Source: a virus. Taken from it: a stretch of 64,000 nt of DNA. How positions within the stretch are numbered: position 1 is the first letter of the stretch; every line of letters starts with the position of its first letter. The notes below the pieces were generated by a model. The model was given only the letters and a program-made list of their open reading frames with translations, was not told the origin of the DNA and did no database searches. This document shows positions 1 through 6,604 of this stretch, piece by piece. Where the stretch lies: the IMG/VR virus record IMGVR_UViG_3300045136_000892; one strand, 5' to 3'. The position numbers and the translations under genes are program-made.

Positions 1-439
1 CGAGTAGCGCTTCTTTCTCGCGCAAATAGGCCTTGGCAAAAGCCTTATCGTGCTCCACGATGGACCCCGTGTTGTCGATCAGGTCGGCCAGCTTGATCGT
101 AGCGCCGTCCGGCGACGATCGGGCCAGATGTTCCCTATCCAGCCGCTTCCTCACCTCGCGGCTCCCATCCTCAAGCCGGGACACATCGGTCACCTCGATC
201 ACGAGCAGAGTCACCCTTTCGCCGAAGACGTCCTGAAGCTCGGCCGGCGTCACTTCTGTGTCCTCCAGCACGTCGTGCAGAGCGGCGGCAGCGATCACGG
301 CAGGGTAACTGATGTACTCGGCAACGATGGAGGCGACGTTCCGGCAGTGGTTGGCATACGGCTCGCCGGTGTATTTCCGCTTCTGCTGCCGATGGGCACA
401 CTTGGCGAAGCCGAGGGCCAGAGTCGGCAGGTCTGTCAT
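1..439 (-). CDS. HD-domain RelA/SpoT-type hydrolase (small alarmone hydrolase/Mesh1-like), runs off the left edge
   Basis: Not in the ORF track. Manual translation from ATG 439 (ATGA overlap with the rtcB stop): MTDLPTLALGFAKCAHRQQKRKYTGEPYANHC...AAALHDVLEDT...IKLADLIDN. Contains the AHxxQxRK, PY, HDxxED and KLAD motifs. Confidence 0.85.
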   Translation of the reverse strand, partial: MTDLPTLALGFAKCAHRQQKRKYTGEPYANHCRNVASIVAEYISYPAVIAAAALHDVLEDTEVTPAELQDVFGERVTLLVIEVTDVSRLEDGSREVRKRLDREHLARSSPDGATIKLADLIDNTGSIVEHDKAFAKAYLREKEALL

Positions 440-1677
440 CCCTTCACGCATAGCACCTGCTTCAGCTCATAAGCGATTTCCACCAGATCCTGCTGCGCCG
501 CCATGACCGCATCGATCGGCTTGTAGGCCGCCGGGCTCTCGTCCAGGACCCCTTCGTCCTTTCGGCACTCGACACCAGCAGTCGCCTTTGCGTGGTCTTC
601 GAGGCTGACGCGTTTGCTGGCCTCGCCCCGGCTCATCACCCGTCCGGCGCCGTGCGAGCAGCTGCAGAATGATTCCTGGTTGCCCTTGCCCCGCACGATG
701 AACGACCGGGCACCCATCGAGCCGGGGATGATCCCCAGATCGCCTTGGCGGGCACGGACGGCCCCCTTGCGGGTGAGCCAGACGTTCTTGCCATAGTGCT
801 GCTCGCGGGCCACGTAGTTGTGGTGGCAGTTCACCGCAACCTCGTCCGGGCGGCCGACCCGGCCGGGGAAGTGCCGCTCCAGCACCCTGAGCACCGCCCG
901 CATCATCACCTCGCGGTTCGCCCGGGCGAAGTCCTGCGCCCAGGTCAGGGCCTCGACGTAGTCGTCGAAAAGGTCTGACCCTTCCGGAATGTAGGCCAGG
1001 TCGGCGTCCGGCAGGTTGACGAACCAGCGGCGCATCTCCGCCTTGGCCCGCTCGATGAAGTAAATGCCGAACTTGTTCCCGATGCCCCGACTGCCGGAGT
1101 GGAGCATCACCCAGATAGCCCCGTCGGTGTCGAGGCACAGCTCGATGAAGTGGTTTCCGGTGCCGAGCGTGCCGAGGTGGTGCGGAGCGCGTGTTGCGGA
1201 CCGGGCCAGGTCGGGGTGCTTGGCGACGATGGCTTCGAGGCGTTCCTGAAGCGACGGCCCGAAGGCATCACTCTTGAACGCCCACGCGGATTCGTCCGGC
1301 AGATCGCCCCAAGCCCCACGATCGCTCGCCCCGCCGTTGTCGGTGCGACCGTGCGGCACCGCCGCCTCGATGTCGGAGCGGATCTCGAACAGGTTGTCGG
1401 GCAGGTCCTCAGCCCGAAGTCCGGTCCGAACGGCCATCATGCCGCAACCGATATCCACGCCCACAGCCGCCGGAATGATCGCCCCGACTGTGGGGATGAC
1501 CGAGCCGACGGTGGCCCCCATGCCCCAGTGGACGTCAGGCATGACCGCGACATGGTGATGGATGAAGGGCATCCGGGCGACGTTGCGGAGCTGGTCGACG
1601 GCTTTCTGGTCGAGAGGTACGCCTTCGGTCCAGCCGTAGATCGGAACGGCTTCCTTGCCGAGGAACTGCCTACTCAT
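436..1677 (-). CDS. rtcB: RtcB RNA 3'-phosphate/5'-OH ligase
   Basis: Motifs MPDVH, GVDIGCG, GTLGTGNHFIE, HSGSRG, HHN, GSMG, HGAGR, DESPAAYK. Start placed at ATG 1677, which overlaps the upstream stop. Confidence 0.96.
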   Translation of the reverse strand: MSRQFLGKEAVPIYGWTEGVPLDQKAVDQLRNVARMPFIHHHVAVMPDVHWGMGATVGSVIPTVGAIIPAAVGVDIGCGMMAVRTGLRAEDLPDNLFEIRSDIEAAVPHGRTDNGGASDRGAWGDLPDESAWAFKSDAFGPSLQERLEAIVAKHPDLARSATRAPHHLGTLGTGNHFIELCLDTDGAIWVMLHSGSRGIGNKFGIYFIERAKAEMRRWFVNLPDADLAYIPEGSDLFDDYVEALTWAQDFARANREVMMRAVLRVLERHFPGRVGRPDEVAVNCHHNYVAREQHYGKNVWLTRKGAVRARQGDLGIIPGSMGARSFIVRGKGNQESFCSCSHGAGRVMSRGEASKRVSLEDHAKATAGVECRKDEGVLDESPAAYKPIDAVMAAQQDLVEIAYELKQVLCVKG

Positions 1678-2968
1678 TGGCAGATTCAAACTTCACGATG
1701 TAGTCGAGGACCTTGTTCGACCAGCCGTCGATGTGGACCCACTGGCCGTAGCCGACGCCATTCTTGTTGCTCGCGACGTTGATCAGGTAGCCCTTCATCT
1801 GCGGTACCGGGTCGTGGCTCTGCTCGTCGGTGATGACGATCAGCCGATCCCGAGCCGGCAGCGAGCGGACCGCCTTACCCAGTTCCGTCCCGCCGTGCGG
1901 CTGAGCACCAGTGATCGCATCCCGAAGGGCAAACCCACGCCGTCCCGGCACCTCGACCAGGCTGTTGGAGAAGGTGAAGACCCGCAGGTCGGAAAACATC
2001 TCCCGGCCGATCATCGCCAGCGAGCAGGCCACATCCATCCGGTTCAGCTCGGACTTGGAGGACAGCGCGGAGTCCATCGATCCCGACACGTCCACCAGGA
2101 TGATCGTCTTGCCGCCCAGCTTCTCGCGGCCCGCGAAGCACTCGAAGAACTTGGCCTCCAGCTCAGGCTCGAACTGGGGGTTGTGCCGCGCCGAGGCGAT
2201 GAAGTTGATCGGTAGGAGTCGACCGGCCTTCACGTCGCGCAGGCCTTCGCGGATCGCCTGGTCCTCCACGCCCGCCTTCGTCATATTGCGGACGTTGCGG
2301 AGCATGGCGAGTCCGCCAAGCTTGCCCTCGGAGAGTAGACGAGACCACGAGGCCTTCTTGTCACCACCCTTCGACAGCTCGACCTCCCAGGTATCCGGAG
2401 TAGCCAGCTCGCCTTTGACGAGCTTGCGCCAAAGCTCGGCCTGTTCGAGATTGGCCGGCTTGGGGCGGGTGATCCGCAGGGCGTCGCGCAGTTTGACCGC
2501 CTTCTGACCTCCGTTGTACTTGGCTAGCTGGTACTCGTCGAACTTGCGGAAGGAGTCGCCCAGGCCGCGCTTGACCTGCTTGGCCAGCGGTTCGTCCTTG
2601 TTAGCCTTCCAATAGATTGACAGGAACTCGGTGATATCGTCCGGGCGGAGGATGACGCGGGGAAAGAGCCCCTTGGCCTGCGCACGGCCTTCCTTGGTCC
2701 GCATCAGCTCACGGGCGAGCAGGAGCGGGACGTGGCGGAGGCGCATGTCCTCCTTCGCCTGGACGGCGACGCGGGCGACATCCTCGGCAGGCACGAGCTT
2801 CACCAGCTCGGCGATCCGCTGGCCGATGGTCTGGCCGTCCTCGTAGAACTCCGACTCCCAGAGCAGGCAGGACATGACGGAGCGTTCGAGTTGAGCGAGC
2901 GCGTTGATACGGGCAGCCGGAGCGCCTTCGTGGGTGAACTCCTTGCGGATTCGGTTCAGGGTAGCCAT
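1670..2968 (-). CDS. rsr: Ro60/TROVE-domain RNA-binding protein with C-terminal vWA domain
   Basis: N-terminal THEGA, FDEYQLAKY, TWEVELS, AMLRN; vWA MIDAS DVSGSM, GGT and ITDEQ. Lies between rtcB and the Y RNAs. Confidence 0.93.
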   Translation of the reverse strand: MATLNRIRKEFTHEGAPAARINALAQLERSVMSCLLWESEFYEDGQTIGQRIAELVKLVPAEDVARVAVQAKEDMRLRHVPLLLARELMRTKEGRAQAKGLFPRVILRPDDITEFLSIYWKANKDEPLAKQVKRGLGDSFRKFDEYQLAKYNGGQKAVKLRDALRITRPKPANLEQAELWRKLVKGELATPDTWEVELSKGGDKKASWSRLLSEGKLGGLAMLRNVRNMTKAGVEDQAIREGLRDVKAGRLLPINFIASARHNPQFEPELEAKFFECFAGREKLGGKTIILVDVSGSMDSALSSKSELNRMDVACSLAMIGREMFSDLRVFTFSNSLVEVPGRRGFALRDAITGAQPHGGTELGKAVRSLPARDRLIVITDEQSHDPVPQMKGYLINVASNKNGVGYGQWVHIDGWSNKVLDYIVKFESANE

Positions 2969-2989: not shown

Positions 2990-3116
2990 GGGCGGGGAAG
3001 ATTCGGAGAGGGACGAAACTGAGCTACTGAACCTTGCGGCCCAGGCGGGGATCGAACCCGCGACCTCCGGCGAACCGGCGCTCTATCCAAAGTATCCCTG
3101 TCCTGCACCACCGCCC
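2990..3116 (-). ncRNA. Y RNA unit 4 (closest to rsr); tRNA-like module opened in the D-loop
   Basis: Terminal stem GGGCGGUGGUGCAGGACAGGGAUACUU...UCCCUCUCCGAAUCUUCCCCGCCC. Inside: GAGC, CCGG-UUCG-CCGG, AGGUC, T-arm GCGGG-UUCGAUC-CCCGC, acceptor stem closed by GCAA, UA-GCUC. Confidence 0.85.
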
Positions 3117-3128
3117 TGTTGCGGAAAC

Positions 3129-3258
3129 CGTGCGGGGAAGAAACGACAAAGGTACAAAGCGTCCTAACCATTAGACGACGGCCCCGAAGGACCGGCGGGA
3201 TTCGAACCCGCATCTCTCTCGTGGAAAGAGAAGTAACCCTTGCCTGCACCACCGCACG
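3129..3258 (-). ncRNA. Y RNA unit 3, YrlA-like; permuted tRNA with a UCC anticodon loop
   Basis: Same terminal scaffold. CUC-UUUCCAC-GAGAG, T-arm GCGGG-UUCGAAU-CCCGC, acceptor CGGUCC-UUCG-GGGCCG, D-arm GUCU-AAUGGUUA-GGAC. Confidence 0.88.
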
Positions 3259-3269
3259 ATGGTTCAAGA

Positions 3270-3403
3270 GGAGGGGGAAGAGACGATAAAGGCACGTACG
3301 TGCTCTACCAGCTGAGCTACCGGCAGGTCGATCTGCCGGACGGGACTCGAACCCGCGACCACGCGATTACAAGTCGAAGTAACCCTTATCTGCACCACCC
3401 TCC
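3270..3403 (-). ncRNA. Y RNA unit 2, YrlA-like; permuted tRNA with a UGU anticodon loop
   Basis: Same scaffold. CGA-CUUGUAA-UCGCG, UGGUC, T-arm GCGGG-UUCGAGU-CCCGU, acceptor CCGGCAG-AUCGAC-CUGCCGG, D-arm GCUC-AGCUGGUA-GAGC. Confidence 0.88.
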
Positions 3404-3412
3404 AAAACTTAA

Positions 3413-3474
3413 GAGCCGGGAAGATCGTCGAAGGTTCGCTTTCCAATAAGTAGCCCTCGACTGCACCACGGCCC
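3413..3474 (-). ncRNA. Y RNA unit 1; minimal scaffold with no tRNA module
   Basis: GCCGUGGUGCAGUCGAGGGCUACUU-short loop-CCUUCGACGAUCUUCCCGGC. Shares the GUGGUGCAG, AGGGNUACUU and UCUUCCC motifs with the other three units. Confidence 0.75.
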
Positions 3475-4159: not shown

Positions 4160-4717
4160 ATGCCAGAAGCACCACACGTACCAACCCTGACCGACCTCGC
4201 GCTCCTCCCTCGGTGGGCGAAGGTTCTGTTCCTTTCGAGGTGTGCCGCCAGGGTCATCCCTCTCATCCGTACTCAATGGCCCAGTTTGTCGGCCGGGGAC
4301 TTGATGGTCATCGGGATGGCTGGGGCGAACGCGGATGCGTCGGCGCGGCTCGGACGAGAGGTTCACGTTGGGGCGGACCCGCTACCACGGTTGATGGAAC
4401 TTATCGAGAGTGCCGAGCAGCAGGACAATATGGCTGGCTATGGCTTGGCGGTATGCGCTACAGCAGCTGGGCTGGCACAGGCCGAATCCGCCGAAAAGGC
4501 CACCAACCTTGCTGGTGCAGCACTTGAGCACATGATTCAGTCTTATGCTGTCAGCGGGCTAAACGAGGGCGCCGTTGTCGGGTCTGTATGGCTCGATTAC
4601 AAGGCCCTCCGGGACGCCGCACAAGCGGGCAGTTGGAACAACGAAACCCGGATGACCGACGGCATCCTCGGCGAGCTTTGGCCGCATGGCACCCCTCCGG
4701 GCTGGCCCACCGAATAA
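4160..4717 (+). CDS. Hypothetical protein
   Basis: 185-aa ORF with GGAG RBS and protein-like composition. Confidence 0.55.
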   Translation: MPEAPHVPTLTDLALLPRWAKVLFLSRCAARVIPLIRTQWPSLSAGDLMVIGMAGANADASARLGREVHVGADPLPRLMELIESAEQQDNMAGYGLAVCATAAGLAQAESAEKATNLAGAALEHMIQSYAVSGLNEGAVVGSVWLDYKALRDAAQAGSWNNETRMTDGILGELWPHGTPPGWPTE

Positions 4718-4790
4718 AGCTAAAATCGACCTGGTGTACATCGCGTACGTTTCGCTGGTCATGAGCCTGCGAACGGCGTATCCTCGCCGC

Positions 4791-5426
4791 ATGAAACGCC
4801 TTACCCTCATCCTCCTCATCCTCGCGGTCTGGCCGTTCCCGACCGTCGCCGCCGATTTCGCGGCCTGGGTCATTGGCGTCTCCGACGGCGACACGCTGAC
4901 TGTCCTGACCGCCGAGAAGCGGCAGGTCAAGGTTCGGCTGCACGGCATCGACGCACCGGAGACGGGGCAGGACTTTGGCACGCGCGCGAAGCAGGCGGCT
5001 TCGGAGCTGGCCTTCGGCAAGCAGGTAACCGTCCGGGAGGTGGACAGGGACCGCTATGGGCGCACCGTGGCCGAGGTAATCCTGCCGGATGGCCGTTCGC
5101 TCAATCGCGAGATGGTGCGCGGCGGGATGGCTTGGTGGCACAGGACCTATGCGCCGGCCGACCGCGAGCTGGCCTCGCTGGAAGCCGAGGCTAAGGCCAC
5201 GAAGCGCGGCCTGTGGGCCCAGCCCGGGGCCATCCCGCCGTGGGAATGGAGGAGTAGCAAGGGCGACCCCGTCACGGCGGAGGTCGTGGGGAACCGCCGG
5301 AGCATGATCTACCACGCACTGAACTGCCGGGGCGCAACCGCAATCAGCGAGAAGAACCGGGTGGCGTTCAAGACTGCGGCCGAGGCCGAGGCTGCGGGCT
5401 ACCGGAAGGCGAGGGATTGCAAATAG
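4791..5426 (+). CDS. Secreted thermonuclease (SNase-like) with C-terminal Ada-like metal-binding domain
   Basis: Signal peptide; DGDT, VRLHGIDAPE, DRYGR, LNREMVRGG, GLWA; C-terminal GNRRSMIYHALNC...AEAAGYRKARDC. Confidence 0.9.
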   Translation: MKRLTLILLILAVWPFPTVAADFAAWVIGVSDGDTLTVLTAEKRQVKVRLHGIDAPETGQDFGTRAKQAASELAFGKQVTVREVDRDRYGRTVAEVILPDGRSLNREMVRGGMAWWHRTYAPADRELASLEAEAKATKRGLWAQPGAIPPWEWRSSKGDPVTAEVVGNRRSMIYHALNCRGATAISEKNRVAFKTAAEAEAAGYRKARDCK

Positions 5427-6514: not shown

Positions 6515-6604
6515 TGCCCGTGATCGGACTCGAACCAACATACCCGCGTGAGCTAAGGTGCCAGGATGACAGCCTGGTGCGTCTACCAATTCCGCCACAC
6601 GGGC
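6515..6604 (-). tRNA. Atypical class II tRNA: Leu-type body with GUC (Asp) anticodon; CCA not encoded
   Basis: GCCCGUG acceptor/CACGGGC-A73; D-arm GGCGGAAUUGGUAGACGC; CCAGG-CU-GUC-AU-CCUGG; ~21-nt variable arm; GUUGG-UUCGAGU-CCGAU. Confidence 0.88.

What the first reader, a model, noticed from the sequence alone, without database searches (positions are those of the whole stretch)
2990..3116. Y RNA with a different topology: tRNA opened in the D-loop and anticodon loop replaced by UUCG
Seen: the order is UGGAUA-GAGC (3' half of D-arm), CCGG-UUCG-CCGG, variable AGGUC, T-arm, acceptor closed by GCAA, then UA-GCUC-AG (5' half of D-arm). The Ro-binding helix therefore exits from the D-loop, not from the anticodon stem as in its neighbours and in YrlA. 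Inference: this is an independent capture of a tRNA into the scaffold and a distinct Y RNA class that presents a different face of the L-shape.
Basis: partly seen in the sequence, partly recalled or inferred. Interest (0 to 1): 0.8.

Follow-up and report, generated by a model that had tools for sequence, protein, structure and literature searches.

The report
Y RNA built on D-loop-opened tRNA
Just upstream of a Ro60 RNA-surveillance gene lies a small RNA whose Ro60-binding handle enters a tRNA-shaped module through the D-loop; this wiring recurs in several bacterial phyla, in viral contigs and in many soil metagenomes, and I found no paper describing it.

Summary

It is not a one-off:
- A covariance model built from it finds the same wiring with a clean score gap: at least 86 bits, against at most 66 bits for every other Y RNA unit in 160 Ro60 loci.
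- Members occur in Isosphaerales, a Gemmatales MAG, Acidobacteriaceae, viral contigs (one beside a classical 615-aa Ro60) and over 70 peat or soil metagenome contigs.
- 53 of 59 metagenome hits sit 22-322 nt upstream of Ro60.
- Handle, anticodon stub, T arm and acceptor hairpin all covary. The D stem (GAGC/GCUC) never varies, so its pairing is inferred.

Rfam's YrlA model gives only 20 bits and mispairs the D-arm columns.

"Distinct Y RNA class" is supported. "Independent capture of a tRNA" is not shown: the class is old, widespread and patchy on the Ro60 tree. "Presents a different face" is untested.

This is a new variant of a known kind. Earlier scan notes describe other Ro60-linked permuted tRNA mimics on other DNA; a sequence look-up and the eight notes returned by a word search showed none with this wiring.

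The parts
2990..3116 (-). Whole D-loop-opened Y RNA unit (127 nt), the Ro60-proximal member of a four-unit array
   Evidence: Sequence read. R1 161 bits and R2 138 bits. The orthologue L002:2855-2981 differs at 6 positions, all structure-neutral.
3108..3116 (-). Handle stem 1, 5' strand (GGGCGG-U-GG); pairs with 2990-2997
   Evidence: Minimum-free-energy fold. Helix 1: 96% of cells paired, 4 pairs with changes on both sides.
3103..3109 (-). GGUGCAG, a variant of the conserved 5' Ro60/Rsr-binding motif GNCGAAN0-1G; overlaps the ends of stems 1 and 2
   Evidence: Shared by all four units of the array and by units in about 160 Ro60 loci as GG[C/U]G[A/C/U]AG. Motif definition from PMC4201824.
3094..3103 (-). 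Handle stem 2, 5' strand (GGACAGGGAU, one C/C mismatch); pairs with 3005-3014
   Evidence: Helix 2: 98% of cells paired, 6 pairs with changes on both sides.
3090..3095 (-). AUACUU, the conserved YUAY-type motif that follows the handle in YrlA-like RNAs; its first two bases close stem 2
   Evidence: Present in all four units. YUAY is described in PMC4201824. Its UA forms a kink in the YrlA crystal structure (10.1101/312249).
3084..3089 (-). 3' half of the D-loop (U-G18-G19-A-U-A21)
   Evidence: The 5' joiner ends in GGNA in most of 55 unique class members; in four variants it holds a single G.
3080..3083 (-). D-stem 3' strand GAGC (tRNA positions 22-25); proposed to pair with 3021-3024
   Evidence: Invariant in all members found without fixing it. 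RNAalifold on the MAFFT core alignment predicts the stem. There is no covariation.
3067..3079 (-). G26 plus the anticodon-arm stub CCGG-UUCG-CCGG
   Evidence: Stub stems are 4-6 bp in most members, longer in L369, and capped by GNRA or UNCG tetraloops or by 5-9 nt loops. 3 of the 4 modelled pairs covary.
3062..3066 (-). Variable region AGGUC (positions 44-48)
   Evidence: AGGU(C) is conserved across the class.
3045..3061 (-). T arm GCGGG-UUCGAUC-CCCGC
   Evidence: C-G to U-A compensatory change in L002. Covariation.
3027..3044 (-). Acceptor stem closed by a GCAA tetraloop (CUGGGCC-GCAA-GGUUCAG)
   Evidence: 6 of 7 pairs covary. GCAA becomes GCGA and G.U becomes A-U in L002. Compensatory CCGAACC/GGUUCGG in L436.
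3015..3026 (-). U8-A9, D-stem 5' strand GCUC (positions 10-13), A14-G15 and the UUUC joiner back to the handle
   Evidence: UA precedes GCU in 50 of 55 unique members.
2990..3014 (-). Returning handle strand: stem 2 3' strand, GAAUCUU internal loop, stem 1 3' strand
1670..2968 (-). Ro60-like gene (432 aa, TROVE + vWA); its ATG lies 21 nt downstream of the unit
   Evidence: ORF. Pfam TROVE E 4.7e-18; VWA_2 and vWA_Ro60 score below their cut-offs.
436..1689 (-). RtcB RNA ligase gene, overlapping the end of the Ro60 gene
   Evidence: Pfam RtcB E 1.7e-132.
3125..3472 (-). Three further Y RNA units with the same handle: C about 3125-3257, B about 3268-3403, A 3409-3472
   Evidence: YrlA partial hits of 27 and 43 bits. 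R2 scores 49 and 47 bits.

Best explanation
The 127-nt stretch is a gene for a bacterial Y RNA, the non-coding partner of the Ro60 ring protein encoded 21 nt downstream. It belongs to a distinct, conserved topological subclass.

Structure:
- Its 5' and 3' ends pair into the Ro60-binding handle. This is two helices around an internal loop that carries the GGUGCAG variant of the known Rsr-binding motif.
- The distal module is a tRNA-type four-way junction with every tRNA joiner in place: U8-A9, G26, a 5-nt variable region, and no gap between the T and acceptor arms.
- The chain is circularly permuted. The acceptor stem is closed by GCAA and the anticodon arm is cut down to a UUCG-capped 4-bp stub.
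- The only opening is in the D-loop, around positions 16/17, through which the handle enters.

Shown: the order of elements, the recurrence of the class, covariation in five of six helices, and constant adjacency to Ro60.

Inferred from sequence and textbook tRNA structure: the module folds into an L-shape. The residues for U8-A14, G15-C48, G18-U55, G19-C56, U54-A58, G26-A44 and the 9-23-12, 13-22-46 and 10-25-45 triples are all present in this copy.

Inferred from what is published for YrlA and Yrn1: like those RNAs, it tethers or presents a tRNA-shaped surface on Ro60. This would recruit, or competitively occupy, a tRNA-recognising factor in an RNA repair and decay operon with RtcB. With no anticodon loop and no free 3' end it cannot decode, cannot be charged, and cannot be cut by an anticodon nuclease. 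Because the handle leaves from the elbow side rather than the anticodon end, the tRNA body is held in a different orientation from YrlA.
For: Sequence and context:
- The order of elements is read directly.
- The Ro60 gene (TROVE, E 4.7e-18) and RtcB (E 1.7e-132) follow immediately on the same strand.
- The handle and its motifs are shared with the three neighbouring units.

Class membership:
- R2 scores: window 138, L002 137, L026 113, L050 108, L035 108, L012 103, L130 93 and L054 86 bits. All other units in 160 Ro60 loci score at most 66 bits.
- R3, trained without the window, recovers it at 61.8 bits, E 1.3e-10.

Conservation and covariation:
- Window versus the Tundrisphaera orthologue: 6 substitutions, all structure-neutral. 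These include a compensatory C-G to U-A change in the T stem, G.U to A-U in the acceptor stem, and GCAA to GCGA.
- On 7 sequences, 98% of cells are paired and 21 pairs change on both sides; 0 of 500 shuffles reach this.

Distribution:
- 4 of 120 Isosphaerales genomes and 2 of 151 genomes of the Acidobacteriaceae family sample.
- 53 of 59 of these hits have a Ro60 start 22-322 nt downstream on the same strand.
- The same wiring with a different handle sits 24 nt upstream of a 615-aa classical Ro60 on viral contigs.

D stem:
- Sister genomes that lost the acceptor hairpin and the GCUC strand also let GAGC decay.
- RNAalifold on a MAFFT core alignment predicts the D stem.
- The D-stem-forced fold lies within 0.6 kcal/mol of the minimum free energy.

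Functional analogy: PMC4201824, 10.1101/312249 and PMC7790460.
Against: - The D stem GAGC/GCUC never varies, so there is no covariation evidence for the one helix that defines the topology.
- Minimum-free-energy folds of the window copy, and RNAalifold on six full-length sequences, prefer to pair GA-C with G-UC of the variable region instead.
- About half of the metagenome members have a 0-1 nt 3' joiner, lack A14/R15, and have a variable position 13. In those the canonical tRNA core cannot be complete.
- There is no expression, processing, Ro60-binding or modification data.
- The effector of any bacterial tRNA-like Y RNA module is still unknown in the literature I could read.
Confidence: 0.72

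Rival explanations
1. The GAGC/GCUC stem does not form. The module would then be three independent hairpins (stub, T arm, closed acceptor) in a multiloop closed directly by handle stem 2. The two conserved tetramers would be kept for another reason, such as protein contacts or the alternative GA-C/G-UC pairing. On this view it is a tRNA-derived Y RNA but not an L-shaped, D-loop-opened tRNA.
For: - No covariation in the D stem.
- The minimum-free-energy fold and the six-sequence RNAalifold consensus choose the alternative pairing.
- D-stem pair probability is only 0.27.
- Position 13 varies against a fixed G22, and many members lack A14/R15.
Against: - Both tetramers keep an exact tRNA register. 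GAGC is one base before the stub, and GCUC is two bases (UA in 50 of 55 members) after the acceptor hairpin.
- The GG of the D-loop is conserved in most members.
- Loss of GCUC goes with decay of GAGC in L003, L004 and L006.
- RNAalifold on 26 MAFFT-aligned cores predicts the stem.
- The energy penalty is 0.6 kcal/mol, and a genuine tRNA in the window also fails to give a cloverleaf by minimum free energy.
- D stems are likewise nearly invariant in YrlA, where the crystal structure shows them paired (10.1101/312249).
Confidence: 0.13
2. The unit acts mainly in cis, as the structured 5' leader of the Ro60 mRNA. It could be an autoregulatory Ro60-binding site or a processing and stability element, rather than a free trans-acting Y RNA.
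For: - It ends 21 nt before the Ro60 ATG, with only a Shine-Dalgarno-like AGGUG in between.
- In 53 of 59 metagenome hits the Ro60 start is 22-322 nt downstream, typically about 43 nt.
- No promoter-like or terminator-like site was found between the units and the gene.
Against: - It carries the same complete handle as the three upstream units, and as units that in other loci lie further from Ro60.
- In L130 another short unit lies between it and Ro60.
- Some contigs carry two such units in tandem.
- The two roles are not exclusive.
Confidence: 0.1
3. It is an ordinary colinear YrlA whose D arm has simply diverged.
For: Rfam's YrlA model gives a weak partial hit of 20.3 bits covering the T arm, the acceptor hairpin and UAGCUCA.
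Against: - The score is far below the gathering score of 69.
- Most of the D-arm columns are marked as non-pairs.
- Only 6 nt follow GCUC before the handle strand.
- The D-loop GG and GAGC lie upstream of the stub.
- R2 separates the class by at least 20 bits from canonical units.
Confidence: 0.02
4. It is a permuted pre-tRNA gene, like the D-loop-junction type I genes of Cyanidioschyzon merolae, matured into a working tRNA, perhaps with RtcB as the ligase.
For: - Permuted tRNA genes with a junction at 20/21 in the D-loop exist (PMC3978253).
- An RNA ligase gene lies in the operon.
- 10.1101/312249 raises processing as a possibility for YrlA.
Against: - The anticodon loop is a UUCG tetraloop on a 4-bp stem, so there is no anticodon.
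- The acceptor stem is closed by a tetraloop, with no discriminator base or CCA.
- ARAGORN and Rfam's tRNA model find no tRNA here.
- The flanks form the Ro60 handle, not a bulge-helix-bulge motif.
Confidence: 0.01
5. It is a decaying remnant of a Y RNA or of tRNA fragments with no function.
For: Truncated derivatives occupy the same position in Singulisphaera-like genomes. Distribution on the Ro60 tree is patchy.
Against: - Conservation across phyla with compensatory changes.
- Dozens of intact metagenomic members, nearly all beside Ro60.
Confidence: 0.02

Closest known systems
YrlA (Y RNA-like A; Rfam RF02553; Chen et al. 2014, PMC4201824; crystal structure in Wang et al. 2018, 10.1101/312249)
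   Same: - Encoded next to Ro60 and RtcB on the same strand.
- The 5'/3' handle carries a GNCGAA-type motif followed by YUAY.
- The tRNA-like module has a UUCRANY T-loop, an acceptor stem closed by a loop, and the same near-invariant GCUC/GAGC D-stem letters.
- It is described as resembling a circularly permuted tRNA.
   Different: - In YrlA the opening is at the anticodon end. The anticodon stem is made from the two flanks, and a complete D hairpin follows the acceptor hairpin.
- Here the opening is in the D-loop. The D stem is made from the two flanks, and the anticodon arm is a capped stub located 5' of the T arm.
- The Rfam model scores 20.3 bits against a gathering score of 69.
Deinococcus radiodurans Yrn1 (as described in PMC4201824)
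   Same: It has an anticodon-like arm lying 5' of the T arm, D-loop-like features upstream of that, and a different orientation from YrlA. It was already taken as a sign that tRNA-like Y RNA modules come in more than one topology.
   Different: - Yrn1 is described without a closed acceptor hairpin and without an evident full D arm; the Ro60-binding stem takes the acceptor position.
- I had no Yrn1 sequence, so this rests on the paper's description.
- The truncated units in L003, L004 and L006 (stub plus T arm only) look more like that description than the window's unit does.
Circularly permuted tRNA genes, type I (junction 20/21 in the D-loop) of Cyanidioschyzon merolae (PMC3978253)
   Same: The 3' part of a tRNA lies upstream of the 5' part, the acceptor ends are joined, and the chain ends fall in the D-loop.
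   Different: - Those are eukaryotic pre-tRNAs processed through a circular intermediate into decoding tRNAs, with bulge-helix-bulge motifs at the ends.
- This one is bacterial or proviral, has no anticodon loop, and its ends form a Ro60 handle.
Neighbouring units B and C of the same array (window 3268-3403 and 3125-3257)
   Same: Same handle, same YUAY motif, same T arm, closed acceptor hairpin and D-stem letters; same presumed transcript.
   Different: - They have a complete local D arm after the acceptor hairpin.
- They keep a hairpin with a 7-nt anticodon-like loop (CUUGUAA, UUUCCAC) right after YUAY.
- Their opening lies at the D-arm/anticodon-stem boundary.

Membership tests
Bacterial Y RNA (Ro60/Rsr-associated ncRNA) | Encoded within a few kb of a Ro60/TROVE gene, on the same strand | tested here: met
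   The unit ends 21 nt upstream of the TROVE/vWA ORF at 1670-2968 (-). The same holds for 53 of 59 metagenome members.
Bacterial Y RNA (Ro60/Rsr-associated ncRNA) | 5' and 3' ends pair into a long stem interrupted by an internal loop or bulge | tested here: met
   Minimum-free-energy fold. Helices 1 and 2 are 96-98% paired, with 10 pairs changed on both sides.
Bacterial Y RNA (Ro60/Rsr-associated ncRNA) | Conserved 5'-strand motif GNCGAAN0-1G (PMC4201824) | tested here: inconclusive
   The window has GGUGCAG. Related loci have GGCGAAG, GGCGCAG, GGCGUAG or GGUGAAG at the same place. It is a variant, not the literal motif.
Bacterial Y RNA (Ro60/Rsr-associated ncRNA) | Expressed as a stable small RNA and bound by Ro60 | not testable with these tools
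YrlA (Rfam RF02553) | Reaches the family's gathering score (69 bits) | tested here: not met
   20.3 bits, E 0.14. Units B and C also fall short, at 43.1 and 27.1 bits.
YrlA (Rfam RF02553) | Order: flank strand of anticodon stem, T arm, closed acceptor hairpin, complete D hairpin, other flank strand | tested here: not met
   No D hairpin follows the acceptor hairpin. GAGC and the GG of the D-loop lie 5' of the stub. Most of the D-arm columns are mispaired in the cmscan alignment.
YrlA (Rfam RF02553) | tRNA-like T arm, loop-closed acceptor stem, conserved D-stem and T-stem sequences | tested here: met
   GCGGG-UUCGAUC-CCCGC; CUGGGCC-GCAA-GGUUCAG; GCUC/GAGC.
tRNA (Rfam RF00005 / ARAGORN) | Colinear cloverleaf with a 7-nt anticodon loop and open acceptor ends | tested here: not met
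   The only tRNA called in the window is at 6515-6604. Here the anticodon loop is UUCG and the acceptor stem is closed.
Circularly permuted tRNA gene (algal/archaeal type) | 3' half upstream of 5' half, with the junction in a loop | tested here: met
   The order of elements is read directly; the junction lies in the D-loop between G15/U16-17 and G18.
Circularly permuted tRNA gene (algal/archaeal type) | Matures into a decoding tRNA (anticodon present, bulge-helix-bulge at the termini) | tested here: not met
   There is no anticodon loop, and the termini form the Ro60 handle.
D. radiodurans Yrn1-type Y RNA | D-like region, anticodon-like arm, T arm; Ro60-binding stem in place of the acceptor stem | not tested
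   No Yrn1 sequence or model was at hand. The comparison rests on the description in PMC4201824. The window's unit has an additional closed acceptor hairpin and a D-stem 5' strand.

The most novel reading that the evidence does not exclude
D-loop-opened units would be a third, ancient architectural class of tRNA-derived Y RNA and the Ro60-proximal 'core' partner in a large group of Ro60-RtcB operons of soil bacteria and their viruses.

The same loci also hold units opened at the D-arm/anticodon-stem boundary, which keep anticodon-like loops, and units opened between the anticodon arm and the variable loop. Together these would show that evolution has grafted one Ro60 handle onto several different points of the tRNA fold, a natural circular-permutation scan.

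That would imply each topology presents a different tRNA surface to a different client. For example, they could be uncleavable decoys or docking sites for distinct tRNA-targeting nucleases, repair enzymes or modification enzymes in phage-host conflicts.
Probability: 0.3. Interest if true: 0.75.

Novelty: new variant of a known kind. Interest (0 to 1): 0.62.

Why it matters
What the tRNA-like domain of bacterial Y RNAs is for remains open. No effector is known, and the literature I could read reasons from one topology (YrlA) plus the poorly tRNA-like Yrn1.

A second, well-conserved and clearly tRNA-like topology changes the question:
- It keeps the same invariant D-stem and T-stem letters but ties the handle to the elbow side and frees the anticodon end.
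- Whatever binds both classes must recognise surfaces that both leave exposed. That excludes the anticodon loop and a free 3' end.
- Whatever binds only one class gives a handle on specificity.

It also supplies about 90 new sequences and two covariance models. Ro60 loci annotated only with Rfam's YrlA model, which scores this unit at 20 bits, are unlikely to pick the class up.

Tundrisphaera lichenicola P12, a sequenced strain, carries a near-identical copy (L002) and would be a natural system for experiments.

Finally, the finding bears on how Y RNAs arose from tRNAs, for instance under the dimeric-tRNA model. The same scaffold with different break points fits a tandem-tRNA origin with variable trimming.

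Tried and rejected
Approaches that did not yield usable results:
- Relatives of the window could not be drawn directly, because the record is an IMG/VR provirus. I reached relatives through loci and handles instead.
- The 5'-anchored pattern scan of viral contigs returned 29 chance matches in GC-rich coding DNA and one true member.
- The 3'-anchored pattern scan returned no further high-scoring member. Its one new member was L369, at 62.7 bits.
- A relaxed hand-written structural parser over all loci was too noisy to use.
- The search for related loci with the single 615-aa Ro60 found only two contigs with identical genes. The breadth of the class beside classical Ro60 therefore remains unknown.

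Analyses that did not resolve the question:
- The Ro60 protein tree did not settle one origin versus several. The label needs 6 changes and is not clustered (56 of 500 shuffles).
- RNAalifold on six full-length sequences did not recover the D stem.

Checks with a clear negative result:
- blastn against the phage and plasmid collections found only partial matches, under annotated tRNA genes in the phage records and under unannotated sequence in the plasmid records. There was no full-length relative.

Literature gaps:
- The 2020 Annual Review on bacterial Ro60 (PMC10870794) and the supplements of PMC4201824 are not held.
- I therefore cannot exclude that a member of this class sits unremarked in those supplementary alignments.

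Readings considered and rejected: ordinary YrlA, pre-tRNA, and pseudogene (see the rival explanations).

Full report
**Locus.** On the minus strand the window begins with an operon. Four tandem small-RNA units occupy 3472 down to 2990. They are followed by a 432-aa ORF (2968-1670) with a TROVE domain (E 4.7e-18) and a weak vWA match. Next comes RtcB (1689-436, E 1.7e-132) and then an HD_4 gene. All four units share one scaffold:
- a terminal stem;
- a 5' GGUGCAG;
- a second stem;
- N-UACUU;
- on the way back, CG-N3-4-CUUCCC.

GGUGCAG is a variant of the published Rsr-binding motif GNCGAAN0-1G, and UACUU is the published YUAY motif (PMC4201824). The window belongs to an IMG/VR record classed as a provirus of 142,954 b. 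The closest Ro60 gene (93% identity) is on the chromosome of Tundrisphaera lichenicola P12, locus L002.

**The observation.** After the handle and AUACUU come:
- UGGAUA-GAGC, the 3' half of a D arm;
- G26;
- CCGG-UUCG-CCGG;
- AGGUC;
- a canonical T arm;
- a 7-bp acceptor stem closed by GCAA;
- UA-GCUC-AG, the 5' half of the D arm;
- 4 more nt (UUUC) and the returning handle strand.

No local D hairpin is possible. In this copy the partners of every classical tRNA tertiary contact are present: U8-A14, G15-C48, G18-U55, G19-C56, U54-A58, G26-A44, and the triples 9-23-12, 13-22-46 and 10-25-45. This follows from the sequence plus textbook tRNA structure, not from a tool result.

ARAGORN and Rfam's tRNA model call nothing here. 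Rfam's YrlA model gives 20.3 bits (gathering score 69) and marks most of the D-arm columns as non-pairs.

**Is it a class?** I fetched 160 loci around relatives of the Ro60 protein, 80 from genomes and 80 from IMG/VR.
- Model R1 was built from the window plus L002. Model R2 was then built from seven members.
- R2 scores eight units at 86-138 bits: the window, L002 (Tundrisphaera), L012 (a Gemmatales MAG), L026, L035, L050 and L054 (Acidobacteriaceae/Terracidiphilus MAGs), and L130 (a viral contig).
- Every other Y RNA unit in those loci scores at most 66 bits.
- Model R3 covers only the tRNA-like core. It was trained on 26 other sequences, without the window, L002, L012, L050 or L130. It still finds the window core at 61.8 bits (E 1.3e-10), while genuine tRNAs reach about 47 bits.
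- Whole-genome searches found the class in 4 of 120 Isosphaerales genomes and 2 of 151 genomes of the Acidobacteriaceae family sample.
73 matches in them score at least 71.9 bits with R2, and most come from peat and soil samples.
- Of 59 such hits, 53 have a Ro60 start 22-322 nt downstream on the same strand, typically about 43 nt. Four more lie at a contig end.
- L369:4721-4863 has the same wiring on a different handle. It lies 24 nt upstream of a 615-aa classical Ro60 (TROVE 151 bits, vWA_Ro60 187 bits) on viral contigs.

**Support for the structure.**
- The window and L002 differ at six positions, all structure-neutral: C-G to U-A in the T stem, G.U to A-U in the acceptor stem, GCAA to GCGA, a purine swap in the T-loop, and a change inside an existing mismatch.
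- On seven sequences, 98% of cells pair and 21 of 37 pairs change on both sides. No shuffle and no slid register comes close.
- The anticodon stub is 4-6 bp in most members, longer in L369. It is capped by GNRA or UNCG tetraloops or by short loops.
- Acceptor stems are 5-9 bp and mostly tetraloop-capped.
- The exception is the D stem. GAGC and GCU(C) never vary, so covariation is silent on the helix that defines the topology.

Indirect evidence favours the D stem:
- Both strands keep the exact tRNA register relative to G26 and U8-A9.
- The GG of the D-loop is kept in most members.
- RNAalifold on a MAFFT alignment of cores predicts the stem.
- Forcing it costs 0.6 kcal/mol.
- In the sister genomes L003, L004 and L006, the Ro60-proximal unit has lost the acceptor hairpin and GCUC, and GAGC has decayed as well. 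L005 keeps both strands.

Evidence against the D stem:
- Minimum-free-energy folds, and RNAalifold on six full-length sequences, prefer a short alternative pairing.
- About half of the metagenomic members have a 0-1 nt 3' joiner without A14/R15. Those cannot have a complete tRNA core.
- The window's copy belongs to the fuller subtype, with GCUC-AG and a 6-nt joiner.

**What it most likely is and does.** It is a Y RNA. The handle binds the Ro60 ring, and the distal module is a tRNA-shaped four-way junction entered through the D stem. Published work gives three possible roles for tRNA-like Y RNA modules:
- tethering Ro60 to another factor, such as PNPase in Deinococcus;
- protection from nucleases;
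- competitive inhibition of a tRNA nuclease (PMC4201824; PMC7790460).

None of these is proven for YrlA. This unit has no anticodon loop and no free end. It can only act through its body: the T arm, the acceptor helix, the D stem and perhaps the elbow. The handle leaves from the D-loop, so the elbow side faces the handle and the anticodon end points away, the reverse of YrlA. I take the adaptor or decoy role as most likely. A cis role as the leader of the Ro60 mRNA is a non-exclusive rival, given the constant 20-90 nt spacing.

**Origin.** The claim of an independent capture is not supported as stated.
- The class is shared by distant phyla, at the same position and with similar flanks.
- On the Ro60 tree it needs 6 changes, at least 4 of them forced, and it is not significantly clustered.
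- Decayed derivatives are seen directly.
- Frequent loss from an old class and repeated origin cannot be separated with these data.
- The dimeric-tRNA model cited in 10.1101/312249 would produce this topology simply by trimming at a different point.

**Comparison and novelty.** The closest known RNAs are:
- YrlA, which has the same parts but a different opening;
- Yrn1, which has an anticodon-like arm before the T arm and no closed acceptor hairpin, by the paper's description;
- formally, the type I permuted tRNA genes of Cyanidioschyzon, with a junction at 20/21 in the D-loop (PMC3978253).

Searches of the paper library found no description of a Y RNA opened in the D-loop. The phage Ro60 paper PMC12135203 does not mention one either. 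Two key sources were not available.

Earlier notes of this scan describe other Ro60-like genes with permuted tRNA mimics on other DNA. A sequence look-up found this unit only in this genome.

I class the finding as a new variant of a known kind.

Noticed in passing
window 3125-3257 and 3268-3403 (minus strand): Units C and B carry, right after the YUAY motif, a hairpin with a 7-nt anticodon-like loop (UUUCCAC; CUUGUAA). They then run through the variable region, T arm, closed acceptor hairpin and a full D arm, so they are opened at the D-arm/anticodon-stem boundary. In L002 the unit at the position of C has a different module, whose anticodon-type stem is made from the flanks. Modules therefore turn over between close relatives.
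   Followed up: partly
L003:2745-2870, L006:2745-2870, L008:2781-2904; similar in L144 and L147: A further wiring: handle, T arm, closed acceptor hairpin, D arm, then a short GAAA-capped hairpin, then handle. This looks like a tRNA opened between the anticodon arm and the variable loop.
   Followed up: partly
L004:2882-2978, L006:2884-2979, L003:2884-2979; L005:2852-2972: In Singulisphaera-like genomes the Ro60-proximal unit is a cut-down relative of the D-loop-opened unit. It keeps the stub and T arm but has lost the acceptor hairpin and GCUC, and GAGC has decayed. This resembles the published description of Deinococcus Yrn1. L005 keeps GAGC and GCUC but has no acceptor hairpin.
   Followed up: partly
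L369:4721-4863 (minus strand); the same in L431/L432 at about 1330-1470: A D-loop-opened unit with a different handle (no GGUGGYGYAG) and a roughly 10-bp UUCG-capped stub lies 24 nt upstream of a 615-aa classical Ro60. A DUF2201 vWA-like gene lies upstream and more Y-like units downstream, on IMG/VR contigs.
   Followed up: partly
L217, L226, L293, L294, L295 (metagenome contigs): Some contigs carry two D-loop-opened units in tandem just upstream of Ro60. The class splits into two subtypes: a 3' joiner of 0-1 nt, or one of 6-13 nt that mostly starts with AG.
   Followed up: partly
window 6515-6604 (minus strand): This is the only tRNA called in the window. It is 90 nt long with a long variable arm, yet has a GUC (Asp) anticodon (Rfam 53.7 bits; ARAGORN calls it tRNA-Asp). 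That combination is odd, and other first-reader notes flagged it too.
   Followed up: no
window 2-451 (minus strand): An HD_4/HD domain gene overlaps the end of RtcB.
   Followed up: no
window 4686-5426 (plus strand): A 246-aa ORF joins a staphylococcal-nuclease domain to an Ada-type zinc-binding domain.
   Followed up: no
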